Virus record (IMG/VR): IMGVR_UViG_3300025466_000012
Location: 32,001-96,000 of that record
Length of the DNA stretch: 64,000 nucleotides
Direction: 5' to 3' (one strand)
DNA from: a virus
The position numbers and the translations under genes were made by a program. Every line of letters starts with the position of its first letter. Position 1 is the stretch's first letter. Shown here one piece after another: positions 37,160-41,958 of this stretch. The notes beneath the pieces were generated by a model, which had not been told where the DNA came from, did no database searches, and was given only the letters and a program-made list of their open reading frames with translations.

Positions 37160-37465
37160 ATGAAAAAACTTATTGCAACAGGTATTCTAACACTCGCTGT
37201 GACCAGTTCACTACCAGCTGAAGCACATTGGCGCAACGGTTGTTGCTATCGCGGTTACAGTGGCTGGGTGGCGCCGGCCTTGATTGGTGGTGTGATCGGT
37301 TACGAACTGTCGAGACCCTATTACTATGCTCCGCCGCCAGTGGTACTAGTTCAACCGCCGGTAGTGGTTCAACAACCGACTCCGGTTGATCCCCCAGGAT
37401 ATCATTGGCAACAGATGACAGATCCACAAACTGGCCAAAGCAAAATGGCCTTGATACCAAACTAA
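37160..37465 (+). CDS. Exported proline-rich small protein
   Basis: Signal peptide ending AEA; WVAPALIGGVIG; PPPVV tract. Confidence 0.7.
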   Translation: MKKLIATGILTLAVTSSLPAEAHWRNGCCYRGYSGWVAPALIGGVIGYELSRPYYYAPPPVVLVQPPVVVQQPTPVDPPGYHWQQMTDPQTGQSKMALIPN

Positions 37466-37473
37466 AGGAAATT

Positions 37474-38061
37474 ATGAAATCGTTATTGTTAGCATTATTA
37501 GTAGTAACAGGGGCCGCACAAGCTTCTAACAACTGGACCGGACTAGCTGGTCCAGTGACCAATTCCACTGGATTATGCTGGAGAAACAGTGCATGGACAC
37601 CGGCCACAGCCGAAACCAACTGCGACGGAGCCACACAGCCAGCGATCACAAAATCTGCCGAGCCTGTTGTTGTGCCCAAAGTTGAAAAATCAGTCGCAAT
37701 CGTGCAATTGCCTCCAGTGACATATTTGGCACAGTCCTTGTTCGATTTTGACCGTGCCGTGATCAAACCACAAGGTCTTCACACTCTTGATCAATTGGTA
37801 AAACGGTTAAAATCGGTCCATGTTGACAGCGTGATCGTGGTGGGACACACCGACAGTGTGGGCACCGATGCTTACAACATGCGATTGGGGCAACGACGAG
37901 CTCGAGCAGTGGCTGATTATCTGATCGGGCAAGGCATAGAGGCCAATCGTGTGTTTGCTGACAGCAAAGGCGAACGCGAGCCAGCTAGCACCAACAGCAC
38001 AGCATATGGTCGTTCCATGAATCGACGAGTGGTTGTAGAAGTCTACGGAACAGCCGACTGA
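37474..38061 (+). CDS. ompA: OmpA-family peptidoglycan-binding protein (betaproteobacterial type)
   Basis: Signal peptide; CWRNSAWTPATA...CDG; FDFD, GHTDSVG, YNMRLGQRRA and NRRV motifs. Confidence 0.9.
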   Translation: MKSLLLALLVVTGAAQASNNWTGLAGPVTNSTGLCWRNSAWTPATAETNCDGATQPAITKSAEPVVVPKVEKSVAIVQLPPVTYLAQSLFDFDRAVIKPQGLHTLDQLVKRLKSVHVDSVIVVGHTDSVGTDAYNMRLGQRRARAVADYLIGQGIEANRVFADSKGEREPASTNSTAYGRSMNRRVVVEVYGTAD

Positions 38062-38150
38062 TGGCCTATTCAGAAAAGTTACTCGATCATTATGAGAATC
38101 CACGCAATGTGGGTTCTTTTGCCAAAGACGAGGAAGGCATAGGCACCTGA
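38061..38150 (+). pseudogene. iscU: Truncated iscU 5' remnant (29 codons)
   Basis: Translates MAYSEKLLDHYENPRNVGSFAKDEEGIGT-stop, paralogous to the start of 38816. Confidence 0.9.
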
Positions 38151-38226
38151 ATTAAAAAACGTGTATAATCTTAATATAGGCATTTATAAATGACCACATA
38201 CAGGTACTCCAAGACTAAATACTTAT

Positions 38227-38826
38227 ATGAAAAGCAAGTATGGTTTAATTAAAAAATGTCTTCATTGTAACCAAGATTTTGAAACAAAACCTAGATACTT
38301 AGAGTATTGTTCAACTCCTTGTAAAAATCCAATCAATCGTCCTGGAAACACTGCTTGGAATAAAGGTATTAAACTTACTAACGAACAAAAGTCTAAATTA
38401 AATATCGAAGGTCTTAAAAAAGGACACGGTTGGAATAAAGGTTTACCAAACAAAAGACAGAGTCAAAAATGGAAAGAAAATAATCCTAATGCAGACGGCA
38501 AATTAAATAATCTAAGAACTAAAAAACCTTGTAACGATGCTCTCAAACTTTATCGAGGAAAAGTTCGTTATGCTACATATAGAACTATTAAAGAAATGAA
38601 AGTTAATAATGAGTGGGTTCCTGTGTTTGGCAAATATAAACATAGTTGGCAAATAGATCATATCATTCCTATAGTTCAAGGGTTTGAATTGGGAATAGAT
38701 CCCTATTTACTTGGTAGTAAAAAAAATATACAATTTATTAAAGGTGAAGAAAACAGATCCAAGTGGGATAGTTTTCAAACTAACGATGTAATAGAGTCAA
38801 TAACAGGAGAAACATATGGCTTATAG
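38227..38826 (+). mobile_element. Free-standing HNH homing endonuclease-like gene
   Basis: WQIDHIIP...NIQFI...EN..K; repeated AWNKG (NUMOD-like) segments; AT-rich; upstream CTAAATA. Confidence 0.75.
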
Positions 38827-40222
38827 TGATGCTGTTTTGGATCATTACGAAAATCCAAGAAATGTGGGATCGTTTAAGAAGGGTGACGAGGGTGTTGGAG
38901 TTGGACTTGTGGGGGCACCTAGTTGTGGAGATGTTTTACAGTTAAGTATAAAGGTAAATGATGTTGGAATTATTACAGACGCCCGGTTTAAAACTTACGG
39001 CTGTTTAACTAGTAATGCTCCTGTTAATACTCCAACCTGCATTAAAAAAATAAAAGATTTAAAAATCGGCGACGAGGTGTTGGCCTGGAACGGTGAAAAA
39101 ATTGTTAATCAAAAAATACAAAATATAATTAAACATTCGGTTGATGTTGATGAGTTGTTGATTATTACTTTTAAACGCGAGACGAGTAGAAAAAATACCA
39201 ATCCTGGCACCTTCTCATTAATTTGCACAAAAGAACATATATTTTGGAATGCCGATAATACACCAGTAGAAGCACAACAACTACAAGTAGGTCAAGAGTT
39301 GTATGAAATAACCGAACACGAGTTACGAATTCTTACAAATAATAGACATCGCACAGAACTCAAACAAAAAAATAGCAATAGAATGAAAGAATGGAATCAA
39401 ATTTTTGATCATTCAGTATTACCACAAAATCAATCCGGGTATGTGTGTAAAGATTTAGAAACCAAAAAGAAAAAATCTAGGATTGCTTCTTTAAAAAATT
39501 GGAAAGATTCTGATTATGTCAAAAAATGGCAACAGGGAATGGCACGAAGAGATTGGTCTAAACCTACTAGTATTGAACAAAAATATATTGATTTATTTGA
39601 AGAAAACAATGTAGCAATAAAATGGAGTGCTGGAAAGATATGGATTCAAACTGATGCAGGACCAGCAAGCCCAGATTTTATTGTTCCTGGTAAGAAAAAA
39701 TGCATAGAAGTGTATACAAAGCGTATGCCCAAATTCATGCAAGATAGGTCAGAAGAATCAAATTATGTAGTGAATCGTCGCAAACAGTTGGCCACAGCCG
39801 GCTACGATTCATTATTTTTAGCAATAGAAGATATTGATAAATCATTGTCAGAAGTGCAAAATTTCATTCATAACGGAATGAAAATTGTAGATGTTTCACC
39901 AATTACTCATTTAAATCAGTTACGCGGTTGTGAAAGAGATGGAAAATCAGTTGTGGTATATGATTTAAAATTAGAGGGTGGAGCTCATGTGTTTTTCTCT
40001 AACAGAGTTGGGTCACATAATTGTGGATCGGCTATTGCATCATCCAGTCTTATCACTGAATGGGTCAAAGGGAAAACACTGGACGAAGCAGGAAGCATTA
40101 AGAACAGCCAAATTGCTGAAGAGTTGGCGCTCCCGCCCGTCAAAATACATTGTAGCATATTGGCAGAATCCGCCATTACAGCGGCAATTGACGACTATAA
40201 GAAAAGACATAACCTAACATAG
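38816..40222 (+). CDS. iscU: Fe-S cluster scaffold IscU interrupted by an intein
   Basis: Exteins give HYENPRNVG, GAPSCGD, FKTYG-CGSAIASSS and LPPVKIHC; spliced length 128 aa. Confidence 0.93.
   Translation: MAYSDAVLDHYENPRNVGSFKKGDEGVGVGLVGAPSCGDVLQLSIKVNDVGIITDARFKTYGCLTSNAPVNTPTCIKKIKDLKIGDEVLAWNGEKIVNQKIQNIIKHSVDVDELLIITFKRETSRKNTNPGTFSLICTKEHIFWNADNTPVEAQQLQVGQELYEITEHELRILTNNRHRTELKQKNSNRMKEWNQIFDHSVLPQNQSGYVCKDLETKKKKSRIASLKNWKDSDYVKKWQQGMARRDWSKPTSIEQKYIDLFEENNVAIKWSAGKIWIQTDAGPASPDFIVPGKKKCIEVYTKRMPKFMQDRSEESNYVVNRRKQLATAGYDSLFLAIEDIDKSLSEVQNFIHNGMKIVDVSPITHLNQLRGCERDGKSVVVYDLKLEGGAHVFFSNRVGSHNCGSAIASSSLITEWVKGKTLDEAGSIKNSQIAEELALPPVKIHCSILAESAITAAIDDYKKRHNLT
39002..40021 (+). mobile_element. 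Intein (340 aa) with a central endonuclease-like domain
   Basis: Starts CLTSNA; block B CTKEH; VYDLKL; ends SHN; +1 Cys; internal TSIE...PDF...CIEV motifs (Vsr/PD-(D/E)XK-like). Confidence 0.92.
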
Positions 40223-40248
40223 AACAAATAACTTTGCTAAATAAAGTT

Positions 40249-40995
40249 ATGAATAGGTGTAAATGTGGTTGTGGAATATCACTTAGAAAAGATAATAGAA
40301 CTGGATACCAAAAAGGTCATAAACCATGCCCTATTTGCGGTACACTGATAAAGGGCTCAAGTATAGAGTGCTGTTCAAAATCTTGCTCTGCTAAACTACA
40401 CTGGCAAAGAAATCCAGATATGGCAGAATCTAGAACCTGGAATGCTGAACGATATGCTACTAGAGAACAGAATAGAGATACTTGGGTTAAAAACTTGTCA
40501 AATGCTTGCAAAGGTAGAACTCCTTGGAATAAAGATACGCAAGGATTACAAGTAGCGTGGAATAAAGGGTTACCTGGTAATTTTAAGGGAAAGAGGCACA
40601 GTTCTGATTATATTGAAAAAGTTAAAAAGACCAATCTTGAAAGATATGGTGTAGAAAATGTTGGACATTTTGCTAAAACTTCTCCTCGTAGTAAAAAAGA
40701 AAAATCTCTAGAAACAATTTTAATTGATTATGAGATCAATGTTAAAATTGGAAAATACAAACCAGATTATGTGAATGAATCAACTAAACACATAATAGAA
40801 ATTTATGGTGATTACTGGCATTGTAATCCAAAATTATTCAATAAAGATTTTTATCATCCTCAGCTGAAAAAGACAGCCGAAGAAAAATGGTTATTAGATT
40901 TAACTAGACAACAGTATTTTGAATCTTTAGGATACACAGTAGAAATAATATGGGAAAGCGAATTAGATGATTACCGTAACCGACACGGCCAGTAA
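40249..40995 (+). mobile_element. Free-standing Vsr-like homing endonuclease
   Basis: YKPDY, IIEIYGDYWH and GYTVEIIWE motifs; N-terminal CKCGCG and WNKG repeats. Confidence 0.8.
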
Positions 40996-41293
40996 AAAGA
41001 TTGCGCAGAATCTCCAACGCCGCGGACACGGTGTGGGTATCCGAGTGGGTGTGCGCACCACTGGGTGTTCGGGCTTGGCCTATGTGTTGGAATATATAGA
41101 TGACATAACCAAGACTTCTGGGGCCATCGATCATGCTCATGACGATTTTGTCATAAGAATAGACCAACGTGATATTGCCTATCTCGAAGGCATGACCATA
41201 GACTATGTGCGTCAAGGACTCAACGAAGGATTTGAATTCGTGAATCCCAACGAACGGGATCGTTGCGGGTGTGGAGAAAGTTTTCGCGTATGA
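40967..41293 (+). CDS. iscA: Fe-S cluster A-type carrier IscA
   Basis: TTGCSGLAY, GMTIDY and NPNERDRCGCGESF motifs. Confidence 0.95.
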   Translation: MITVTDTASKKIAQNLQRRGHGVGIRVGVRTTGCSGLAYVLEYIDDITKTSGAIDHAHDDFVIRIDQRDIAYLEGMTIDYVRQGLNEGFEFVNPNERDRCGCGESFRV

Positions 41294-41958
41294 AAATCTG
41301 CATAGTAGGATTTCCTAGATCTAGAAGTAGTCTTCTTTTAGAAGCTATCGGAAATCATCATGGAATACCTATTTTGGGTCAAGACTTGGAACAGATTGTT
41401 AGCTTACCTAACATAGCCCCACACTCTGAGCAGTACATGAAATTGCTGGCTGGAATACTAACCAAACCGGTTGGAGTAATAAGATTACATCCTGCTCAGC
41501 TTGCATACAAAAAAATCATCTGCGAATTTGACCTGTTTAATTTTGAACAGTACACCCACATCTATCTAACTGCTAGACGGTGTATAGCAGATGCAATCAG
41601 CAGCAATTTGGTAGCCCGCCATCTAAATATGTGGAACTACAATCAAGATAATCCGTCTCTCGAATTTGTGGAGCCTATCGAACTAACCGAGCAATATCAC
41701 AAAGATGTAAAACATTATGTGTATAGCGAGCATATTATGGCCGAATTACAATCGTATTTCTTGAATAAAAATATTAAATTCACACAGTTATACTATGAGG
41801 ATATTCCAGAATTTGTTAGAGACAATCTTGGAAATACCGATGTGTCTCATGTGAAGACCAATTATCAATACAGTACCATAATTAAAAACTACAATAGCAT
41901 AATGCAGTTATACCATATCTACAAAGAACAGTTACAACAGTTGACATTGACGCAGTGA
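41290..41958 (+). CDS. Sulfotransferase-like P-loop protein
   Basis: N-terminal VGFPRSRSS; SSNLVAR; LYYED; AT-rich. Confidence 0.55.
   Translation: MKICIVGFPRSRSSLLLEAIGNHHGIPILGQDLEQIVSLPNIAPHSEQYMKLLAGILTKPVGVIRLHPAQLAYKKIICEFDLFNFEQYTHIYLTARRCIADAISSNLVARHLNMWNYNQDNPSLEFVEPIELTEQYHKDVKHYVYSEHIMAELQSYFLNKNIKFTQLYYEDIPEFVRDNLGNTDVSHVKTNYQYSTIIKNYNSIMQLYHIYKEQLQQLTLTQ

What the first reader, a model, noticed from the sequence alone, without database searches (positions are those of the whole stretch)
38816..40222. Intein inserted at an Fe-S ligand cysteine of a phage IscU
Seen: a 340-aa intein (39002-40021) splits FKTYG from CGSAIASSS. Removing it gives a 128-aa IscU with all three cysteines. 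The +1 splicing nucleophile is the second cluster-binding Cys. Known: inteins occur in the Fe-S scaffold SufB, where splicing is sensitive to oxidative and nitrosative stress. Inference: I do not recall IscU as a described intein host. Splicing could be gated by redox state or metals, coupling phage Fe-S assembly to host condition.
Basis: partly seen in the sequence, partly recalled or inferred. Interest (0 to 1): 0.8.

Follow-up and report, generated by a model that had tools for sequence, protein, structure and literature searches.

The report
Mobile intein splitting phage IscU
A large uncultivated phage carries its own iron-sulfur scaffold gene (iscU), which is interrupted just before a cluster-binding cysteine by a genuine self-splicing intein with a Vsr-like DNA-cutting domain. 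It looks like a selfish mobile element in a host gene I could not find described, and nothing here shows it is a redox or metal switch.

Summary
ORF 38816-40222 encodes a 468-aa IscU precursor. A 340-aa intein (39002-40021) sits between Gly62 and the ligand Cys63, and removing it leaves a complete 128-aa IscU.

- **Splicing:** all class-1 splicing residues are invariant in 25 homologues down to 38% identity, and the model has a HINT fold.
- **Nuclease:** the inserted domain is not LAGLIDADG. It is a Vsr-like nuclease closest to I-Bth0305I (Z 10.8), but it lacks that family's catalytic His.
- **Selection:** the whole intein is under strong purifying selection (dN/dS 0.03-0.17).
- **Distribution:** over 120 protein clusters carry it in metagenomes. 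Only 5 of 594 related IMG/VR phage iscU loci have it, and no GenBank phage does. Nuclease-less mini-intein alleles exist, as do IscUs with a second intein at Cys37.
- **Local context:** the gene is also flanked by two free-standing homing-endonuclease genes and a 29-codon relic of an older iscU 5' end, all in a low-GC island.

This pattern fits a selfish homing element. Redox or metal gating stays untested.

I found no paper describing an IscU intein. This scan has already noted the same intein family in other phage genomes, and other IscU inteins in bacteria and archaea.

The parts
38816..40222 (+). iscU precursor ORF (468 aa): N-extein + intein + C-extein
   Evidence: NifU_N E 1.9e-46, split in two stretches.
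38816..39001 (+). N-extein, IscU residues 1-62 (holds Cys37 and Asp39). GC3 is low, 0.29.
39002..40021 (+). Class-1 intein, 340 aa: Cys1, block B T76-x-x-H79, block F Asp321, block G His339-Asn340
   Evidence: These residues are invariant in A1. AF2 mean pLDDT 85.5. HINT-fold matches to gp41-1, BIL and DnaB inteins.
39002..39310 (+). HINT N-lobe (intein aa 1-103)
   Evidence: Profile hits to the gp41-1 and NrdJ-1 inteins.
39311..39553 (+). Helical linker, putative DNA-binding region (intein aa ~104-184)
   Evidence: Helices in both models. Aligned free-standing relatives carry NUMOD3 motifs N-terminal to the shared nuclease core. This segment itself gave no Pfam hit.
39554..39877 (+). Vsr-like / I-Bth0305I-like nuclease core (intein aa ~185-292). 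Invariant E254, D287, K295, E298, R321 (precursor numbering). Pro305 stands where the family's catalytic His lies.
39878..40021 (+). HINT C-lobe with blocks F and G (intein aa 293-340)
40022..40222 (+). C-extein, IscU residues 63-128 plus the stop codon. It begins with the ligand Cys63 (the +1 nucleophile) and holds His105 and Cys106.
38061..38150 (+). 29-codon relic of an older iscU 5' end (MAYSEKLLDHYENPRNVGSF...), overlapping the stop of the ompA-like gene
   Evidence: It is 62% nt identical to the live 5' end and has backbone-like GC.
38227..38826 (+). Free-standing homing-endonuclease gene HEG1 (two WNKG motifs, HNH-like 'IDHIIP'). It overlaps the iscU start.
   Evidence: Weak Pfam HNH hit, E 0.076. 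A 55%-identical homologue sits at the same place in L023. GC3 0.20.
40234..40995 (+). Free-standing homing-endonuclease gene HEG2 (Vsr/DUF559-like 'PDY..IIEIYGDYWH'), between iscU and iscA
   Evidence: 80-85%-identical homologues lie directly after intein-free iscU in L011, L018 and L083. Nuclease profile A3 hits it at E 1e-4. GC3 0.22.
40967..41293 (+). iscA (A-type Fe-S carrier), the conserved partner of phage iscU
   Evidence: Pfam Fe-S_biosyn E 7e-15. Found next to iscU in 71 of 85 loci.

Best explanation
This is a splicing-competent class-1 homing intein that has invaded the iscU gene of a large (probably jumbo) uncultivated phage at the codon of the cluster ligand Cys63.

**How it most likely works.** After translation, Cys1 performs the N-S acyl shift. 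Cys+1, which is IscU Cys63, attacks to form the branched intermediate. Asn340 then cyclises, and an S-N shift leaves an ordinary 128-aa IscU. That IscU works with the phage's IscA. All of these steps are inferred from conserved residues and fold, not shown.

**How it spreads.** The in-frame Vsr-like (I-Bth0305I-related) nuclease is expected to cut intein-free iscU alleles during co-infection, so the intein is copied in by repair. This is also inferred.

**Why here.** The site is chosen because it is invariant, not because the phage needs regulation. In this window the intein is one of three selfish elements that have piled onto the same 128-codon gene.
For: **Splicing competence**
- The insertion is exact, and the splicing residues C1, T-x-x-H, D (block F) and H-N|C are invariant across 25 homologues down to 38% identity.
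- The model has a confident HINT fold.

**Nuclease domain**
- It matches I-Bth0305I 3R3P at Z 10.8 (rmsd 2.8 over 92 residues) and Vsr 1CW0 at Z 9.2.
- The sequence profile hits 3r3p at E 8e-5.

**Selection and distribution**
- dN/dS is 0.03-0.17 in every intein segment, including the nuclease.
- Only 5 of 594 related IMG/VR iscU loci carry the intein.
- No GenBank phage has it.
- Nuclease-less mini-intein alleles sit at the same site: P0125 and L090.
- The intein is more alike between loci (81-84% aa) than the N-exteins beside it (69-76%).

**Local context**
- The region is a low-GC island, with a 5' relic of the earlier allele.
Against: - No experiment shows splicing or DNA cleavage.
- The nuclease lacks the family's proposed general-base His: an invariant Pro305 sits at the I-Bth0305I His213 position. 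It may use different chemistry, or it may only bind DNA.
- The extein tree is too short (129 columns) to prove repeated horizontal gain.
- A selfish origin does not exclude a secondary regulatory effect.
Confidence: 0.8

Rival explanations
1. Conditional protein splicing. The intein acts as a post-translational switch. Oxidation (a Cys1-Cys+1 or Cys1-Cys75 disulfide), or Zn/Fe/Cu binding near the junction, stalls splicing, so phage IscU is made only when the host's redox or metal state allows.
For: - Cys1 and Cys+1 are both cysteines, and Cys+1 is a cluster ligand.
- A further Cys directly before block-B Thr (precursor C137) is present in 23 of 25 sequences.
- There is precedent in other inteins: SufB (Topilina 2015, cited in PMC4760082; PMC8891592) and DnaB (PMC6195587).
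Against: - Nothing in the sequence tests it.
- Most related phage iscU alleles work without the intein.
- The nuclease is kept under selection, as expected for a mobile parasite rather than a domesticated switch.
- Any Cys1/Cys+1 intein is redox-sensitive in vitro, so sensitivity alone would not show adaptive regulation.
Confidence: 0.1
2. The intein splices, but its nuclease is catalytically dead and is kept only for folding or DNA binding. The intein persists vertically, or spreads by hitch-hiking in the co-conversion tracts of neighbouring free-standing endonuclease genes such as HEG1 and HEG2.
For: - The family's catalytic His is replaced by an invariant Pro.
- In this window two free-standing HEGs lie within 200 bp of the intein.
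- The N-extein shares their low GC3.
Against: - The five IMG/VR intein loci L006-L010 have neither HEG1 nor HEG2 next to them.
- E254, D287, K295, E298 and R321 are invariant, and the nuclease core has dN/dS 0.04-0.17.
- Free-standing relatives also split into His and non-His subgroups. That suggests an alternative active site rather than decay.
Confidence: 0.15
3. The gene is a disrupted iscU pseudogene, and the insert no longer splices.
For: The phage can presumably rely on the host's IscU, so the gene could be dispensable.
Against: - The reading frame is open.
- Every splicing residue and every IscU ligand is invariant across highly diverged copies, with saturated synonymous change.
Confidence: 0.03

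Closest known systems
Mycobacterium tuberculosis SufB (Pps1) intein
   Same: Both are class-1 inteins inside a core Fe-S cluster assembly protein. Conditional splicing under oxidative or nitrosative stress has been reported for SufB (Topilina 2015, as cited in PMC4760082; PMC8891592).
   Different: - The host protein and pathway differ: the ISC scaffold IscU versus SUF SufB.
- Here the +1 nucleophile is itself a cluster ligand.
- The nuclease type differs.
- The host is a phage, not an essential bacterial gene.
- No splicing data exist for this intein.
I-Bth0305I and the Vsr-like 'EDxHD' homing endonucleases (Dassa 2009, PMC2677866; Taylor 2011, PMC3239194; PDB 3R3P)
   Same: - The nuclease core has the same fold (Z 10.8) and a significant profile match (E 8e-5).
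- It has the conserved Asp of 'PD' and the Glu of 'IEV'.
- Its free-standing relatives carry NUMOD motifs.
- The HINT part is closest in sequence to the gp41-1 and NrdJ-1 inteins of the same phage metagenome world.
   Different: - Here the nuclease is fused in frame inside a contiguous intein. In the 2009 'fractured genes' it is a separate ORF between split-intein halves. This is the state that paper's model predicted as step IIIa.
- The proposed general-base His is replaced by an invariant Pro.
- IscU is not among the hosts they list.
gp41-1 and NrdJ-1 split inteins (PDB 6QAZ, 8UBS)
   Same: They are among the best sequence and structure matches for the splicing domain.
   Different: Those are naturally split mini-inteins in DNA-metabolism genes. 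This one is contiguous, carries a nuclease, and sits in a metabolic scaffold gene.
Free-standing homing endonucleases of T-even phages (intronless homing, illegitimate DSB repair)
   Same: HEG1 and HEG2 sit between or overlapping genes at fixed positions beside iscU. They are absent from most relatives. HEG1's arrival left a duplicated 5' gene fragment.
   Different: They are separate elements from the intein. Their cleavage sites are unknown.

Membership tests
Class-1 intein | N-terminal Cys/Ser nucleophile (block A) | tested here: met
   Cys63 of the precursor (intein Cys1) is invariant in 25 sequences.
Class-1 intein | Block B T-x-x-H | tested here: met
   T138 and H141 are invariant.
Class-1 intein | Block F Asp, and block G penultimate His plus terminal Asn, followed by a Cys/Ser/Thr +1 residue | tested here: met
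   D383, H401, N402 and C403 are invariant.
Class-1 intein | HINT fold | tested here: met
   AF2 pLDDT 85.5. Foldseek probability 1.00 to gp41-1 (6qaz), BIL (2lwy) and MchDnaB inteins.
Class-1 intein | In-frame insertion at a conserved site, with intein-free alleles of the same gene | tested here: met
   74 intein-free phage iscU loci have zero gap at the same junction. Solved IscU structures align across the junction.
Class-1 intein | Protein splicing actually occurs | not testable with these tools
   Needs expression and detection of the ligated exteins.
IscU / NifU_N Fe-S scaffold (PF01592) | Pfam match above cut-off, and the ligand set Cys37, Asp39, Cys63, His105, Cys106 | tested here: met
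   157.7 bits against a cut-off of 22. All five residues are invariant. The exteins align end to end with H. influenzae and E. coli IscU.
EDxHD / Vsr-like homing endonucleases (I-Bth0305I family) | Vsr-like nuclease fold | tested here: met
   3R3P Z 10.8 (rmsd 2.8, 92 aligned), 3HRL Z 9.7, Vsr 1CW0 Z 9.2. 3R3P is also the top Foldseek hit.
EDxHD / Vsr-like homing endonucleases (I-Bth0305I family) | Sequence relationship to a characterised member | tested here: met
   The profile of the domain (A3) hits 3r3p_A at E 8.2e-5.
EDxHD / Vsr-like homing endonucleases (I-Bth0305I family) | Catalytic Asp (Vsr D51) and the family's invariant Glu | tested here: met
   D287 in 'PDF' and E298 in 'IEV' are invariant.
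EDxHD / Vsr-like homing endonucleases (I-Bth0305I family) | Catalytic His (Vsr H69 / I-Bth0305I H213) | tested here: not met
   The aligned position is an invariant Pro305. About half of the free-standing relatives keep W-H there and the rest do not.
EDxHD / Vsr-like homing endonucleases (I-Bth0305I family) | Last Asp of the motif (Vsr D97 / I-Bth0305I D222) | tested here: inconclusive
   This region (EESNYVVNR) aligns loosely. No invariant acid falls at the exact column.
LAGLIDADG intein endonucleases | LAGLIDADG domain between the HINT lobes | tested here: not met
   No Pfam LAGLIDADG hit. The inserted domain folds as a Vsr-like nuclease.
Conditional (redox/metal-gated) inteins | Splicing rate responds to oxidants or metals in the native context | not testable with these tools
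   Only candidate cysteines can be named: C63, C137 and C403.

The most novel reading that the evidence does not exclude
IscU inteins, which place their +1 nucleophile on cluster-ligand cysteines (Cys63 here, Cys37 in double-intein relatives), work as a redox- or metal-gated licence for Fe-S scaffold maturation. The phage would then deliver active IscU only when the infected cell's thiol and iron state permits. Separately, the nuclease would represent a His-less catalytic variant of the Vsr-like homing endonucleases.
Probability: 0.1. Interest if true: 0.75.

Novelty: new member of a known kind. Interest (0 to 1): 0.45.

Why it matters
**A new intein host.** Inteins are known to sit in active sites of conserved proteins. 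IscU, the central scaffold of the ISC pathway, does not appear as an intein host in the literature I could search. Yet the sequence data show at least two insertion sites, both exactly at cluster ligands, and hundreds of copies in uncultured phages.

**A test case for selfish versus regulatory inteins.** The system is compact and tractable: a 128-aa host protein, well-understood chemistry at the +1 cysteine, and natural alleles that are intein-free, full-length or mini-intein.

**A predicted intermediate.** It gives a natural example of the contiguous 'nuclease fused in frame into an intein' state that the fractured-gene model predicted for Vsr-like endonucleases.

**A snapshot of several elements on one gene.** The locus shows three homing elements competing for one small gene.

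Tried and rejected
- **Pfam and PHROGs on the nuclease region and on HEG1/HEG2:** nothing significant. A profile and a fold model were needed instead.
- **Foldseek on the whole intein:** it saw only the HINT lobes, so the nuclease had to be modelled alone.
- **BLASTP of the intein against HEG2:** only the shared PD..IE[VI]Y motif, E 0.058.
- **Extein maximum-likelihood tree:** it had too few columns to resolve whether the intein was gained once or several times, so I draw no conclusion from it.
- **dN/dS for the exteins:** the N-extein rows are invalid because of a one-codon indel I introduced. Only the intein segments are used.
- **GC3 difference between N-extein (0.29) and C-extein (0.43):** suggestive of a recombination end-point, but it rests on about 65 codons each and was not tested for significance.
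- **Promoter scan:** the best-scoring site lies right upstream of HEG1, but the total count is not above shuffles. It is a lead only.
- **The look-up of encoding contigs:** I therefore could not examine the habitat or gene context of the metagenomic homologues, including the eukaryote-like double-intein ISCUs.
- **Supplement of the intein survey PMC4760082:** not held. InBase could not be consulted.
- **'Acinetobacter phage MD-2021a' hits:** rejected as phage comparators, because the contigs carry a full bacterial isc operon.

Full report
**1. Observation**

ORF 38816-40222 on the + strand is open and encodes 468 aa. Pfam finds NifU_N (E 1.9e-46) in two separated stretches, with weak Hint-family hits between them.

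phmmer against solved structures aligns residues 1-63 with IscU 1-63 and residues 403-467 with IscU 63-127 of H. influenzae and E. coli IscU. The insert is therefore residues 63-402 (nt 39002-40021, 340 aa), between Gly62 and Cys63. Removing it gives a 62 + 66 = 128-aa IscU.

**2. The intein**

I aligned 25 intein-bearing IscUs that are 38-97% identical to this one. The following residues are invariant:
- Cys63 (intein Cys1).
- Thr138 and His141 (block B, T-x-x-H).
- Asp383 (block F).
- His401-Asn402 (block G) and Cys403 (+1).
- The IscU ligand set: Cys37, Asp39, His445 and Cys446.

An AlphaFold2 model of the intein is confident (mean pLDDT 85.5). Its best PDB matches are HINT domains: the gp41-1 intein, a bacterial intein-like domain, and the MchDnaB and Prp8 inteins. 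A sequence profile also reaches the gp41-1 and NrdJ-1 inteins.

By every sequence and fold criterion this is a canonical class-1 intein. Splicing itself is inferred.

**3. The nuclease**

No LAGLIDADG or HNH domain is detectable. An exhaustive HMMER search with the intein alone found two kinds of relative:
- Inteins in other hosts: a transglutaminase-like protein, a weak sub-threshold radical SAM match, and NrdD.
- Many free-standing 200-310-aa proteins that match only intein residues ~150-280 and carry NUMOD3 motifs.

Aligning these defines a domain with invariant P-T-x-x-E, P-D-F and I-E-V motifs.
- Its profile hits the I-Bth0305I catalytic domain (3r3p) at E 8.2e-5.
- A model of the domain (pLDDT 88) matches 3R3P at Z 10.8 (rmsd 2.8 over 92 residues), the DUF559-like 3HRL at Z 9.7 and Vsr at Z 9.2.
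- 3R3P is also the top Foldseek hit.

So the domain belongs with the Vsr-like homing endonucleases of Dassa 2009 (PMC2677866) and Taylor 2011 (PMC3239194).

There are two differences:
- It is fused in frame into a contiguous intein. The 2009 paper predicted this state as a step in its model, but described the nuclease as a separate ORF between split-intein halves.
- The position of the proposed general-base His (I-Bth0305I H213) is an invariant Pro305 here.

Whether it cuts DNA is therefore open. However, dN/dS in the nuclease core is 0.04-0.17, as low as in the splicing lobes, with synonymous sites near saturation.

**4. Host genome**

The window is part of a 199,683-bp IMG/VR virus record estimated 58% complete. 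It encodes a terminase, virion proteins, a DnaB-like helicase, DNA ligase and class I ribonucleotide reductase.

iscU-iscA is a conserved module in this phage group. Among 85 loci, iscA follows iscU in 71, and the flanking genes are syntenic in 24-34. Several of these loci come from contigs of 300-374 kb.

**5. Distribution**

- The protein database holds 726 hits, and the best 120 clusters (64-97% identity, ~465 aa) all have this architecture.
- In IMG/VR, 594 stretches encode relatives, but only five loci (L006-L010) carry the intein. In 74 of the kept loci the N- and C-exteins are directly adjacent.
- No record among 50,697 GenBank phage entries has the intein. Phage C48C1 has an intein-free NifU-like gene.
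- Among 185,579 species-representative genomes only two contigs match. Both are short or phage-like contigs binned into MAGs.

**6. Life-cycle stages**

All stages of the homing cycle are present at the same site:
- **Empty alleles:** the majority of related loci.
- **Full-length alleles:** the nuclease is under selection.
- **Mini-inteins:** these have cleanly lost the nuclease. Examples are P0125 (294 aa) and L090 (283 aa, a 155-aa intein).

Between this window and L006, L007 and L010, the intein is 81-84% identical in protein, while the N-exteins are 69-76% identical. This is unusual for so conserved a host protein, and it fits an intein younger than the alleles it sits in.

Some IscUs carry two inteins. 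One is placed before Cys37 (GAPA|C...N|CGDV) and one before Cys63 (P0121, P0132, P0134). So at least two of the three cysteine ligands serve as +1 nucleophiles in this family.

**7. Local context**

The gene lies in a low-GC island. GC is 0.29-0.40 over about 38150-40950, against roughly 0.47-0.52 in the flanks. The elements, in order, are:
- **iscU relic.** Directly after the ompA-like gene comes a 29-codon relic of an iscU 5' end (38061-38150). It has backbone-like GC and is 62% nt identical to the live 5' end.
- **HEG1.** Next is an AT-rich spacer, then HEG1 (38227-38826). HEG1's homologue sits at the same place in L023.
- **iscU with the intein.**
- **HEG2.** HEG2 follows at 40234-40995, and its C-terminal domain weakly matches the same nuclease profile. 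Homologues at 80-85% identity follow intein-free iscU in L011, L018 and L083.

GC3 values are 0.20 (HEG1), 0.29 (N-extein), 0.24 (intein), 0.43 (C-extein), 0.22 (HEG2) and 0.48 (iscA).

My reading, which is inference: a cassette from a lower-GC phage, containing HEG1, the 5' part of iscU and the intein, replaced the resident gene by double-strand-break repair with poor upstream homology. That left the duplicated 5' stub. HEG2 is an independent element.

**8. Regulation**

Nothing computed here bears on redox or metal gating.
- Candidate thiols are Cys1, Cys+1 and a Cys just before block-B Thr (C137, present in 23 of 25 sequences).
- Conditional splicing has been reported for the SufB and DnaB inteins (Topilina 2015 as cited in PMC4760082).
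- Any Cys/Cys intein can be trapped by oxidants in vitro, so sensitivity alone would not show adaptive regulation.
- The minority, patchy distribution and the retained nuclease argue that the element is primarily selfish.

I put about 0.1 on a genuine adaptive switch.

**9. Novelty**

Full-text searches for intein with IscU, NifU, or iron-sulfur cluster assembly found only SufB work. Dassa 2009 does not mention IscU or NifU, and neither term is in the main text of the 2015 survey (full-text searches; its text shows only one SufB mention). InBase and the survey's supplement were not available.

Earlier notes of this scan report the same Vsr-type IscU intein in several other phage genomes. They also report LAGLIDADG-type or mini-inteins at IscU cysteines in CPR bacteria and archaea. 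I used those notes as leads for I-Bth0305I and tested that link myself.

I class the finding as a new member of a known kind. It is an ordinary splicing mechanism in an apparently undescribed host gene and site, with an uncommon nuclease type.

**10. Limits**

- The extein tree was unresolved.
- The N-extein dN/dS values are invalid and are not used.

Noticed in passing
window 38061-38150: A 29-codon relic of an iscU 5' end (MAYSEKLLDHYENPRNVGSFAKDEEGIGT*) overlaps the ompA-like stop codon (TGATG). It has backbone-like GC and is 62% nt identical to the live iscU start. It looks like a duplication left by illegitimate repair when the HEG1 cassette arrived.
   Followed up: partly
window 38227-38826 and 40234-40995: Two free-standing homing-endonuclease genes flank iscU. 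HEG1 is HNH-like with two WNKG motifs. HEG2 is Vsr/DUF559-like with WNK[DG] motifs. Each has homologues at the same position beside intein-free iscU in other phage contigs (L023; L011, L018, L083).
   Followed up: partly
window 41263-41958: A 231-aa ORF with low GC (0.37) lies between iscA and the PD-(D/E)XK nuclease gene. It has no Pfam hit and no homologue in any of the 85 related loci, where iscA is followed directly by that nuclease gene. It may be a fourth insertion.
   Followed up: no
L023:6001-6385 and L077:5989-6376: Two intein-free phage iscU alleles each carry a different 7-nt insertion holding an in-frame stop, directly after the Cys37-Gly38 codons (TGC GGC TGA C..., TGC GGT TAG A...). 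The rest of IscU continues intact in the +1 frame. This could be a programmed +1 frameshift, an endonuclease-immunity scar or a pseudogene.
   Followed up: no
P0121, P0132, P0134 (database proteins): These IscU proteins have two inteins, one before Cys37 and one before Cys63. P0132 and P0134 have N-terminal extensions and ISCU-like motifs (YHK/YNKKV, KLHCS). P0134 scores slightly better against mitochondrial ISCU than bacterial IscU, so they may be eukaryotic or giant-virus genes. Their context could not be fetched.
   Followed up: partly
L090:3812-4663: A 24-kb contig binned as a Fischerella MAG looks like phage DNA (iscU-iscA-nuclease-tail fibre). Its IscU carries a 155-aa mini-intein of this lineage, with the nuclease cleanly deleted.
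   Followed up: partly
L004 (CAKLQF020000009.1, 'Acinetobacter phage MD-2021a'): The region fetched (8.4 kb) from a contig deposited as phage carries a complete bacterial iscRSUA-hscBA-fdx operon with ppiD, hupB and cyaA. This looks like bacterial DNA rather than phage.
   Followed up: no
window 37405-38061: The phage encodes an OmpA-family (peptidoglycan-binding) protein with a signal-peptide-like N-terminus, directly upstream of the iscU relic. It is absent from all 85 related loci.
   Followed up: no
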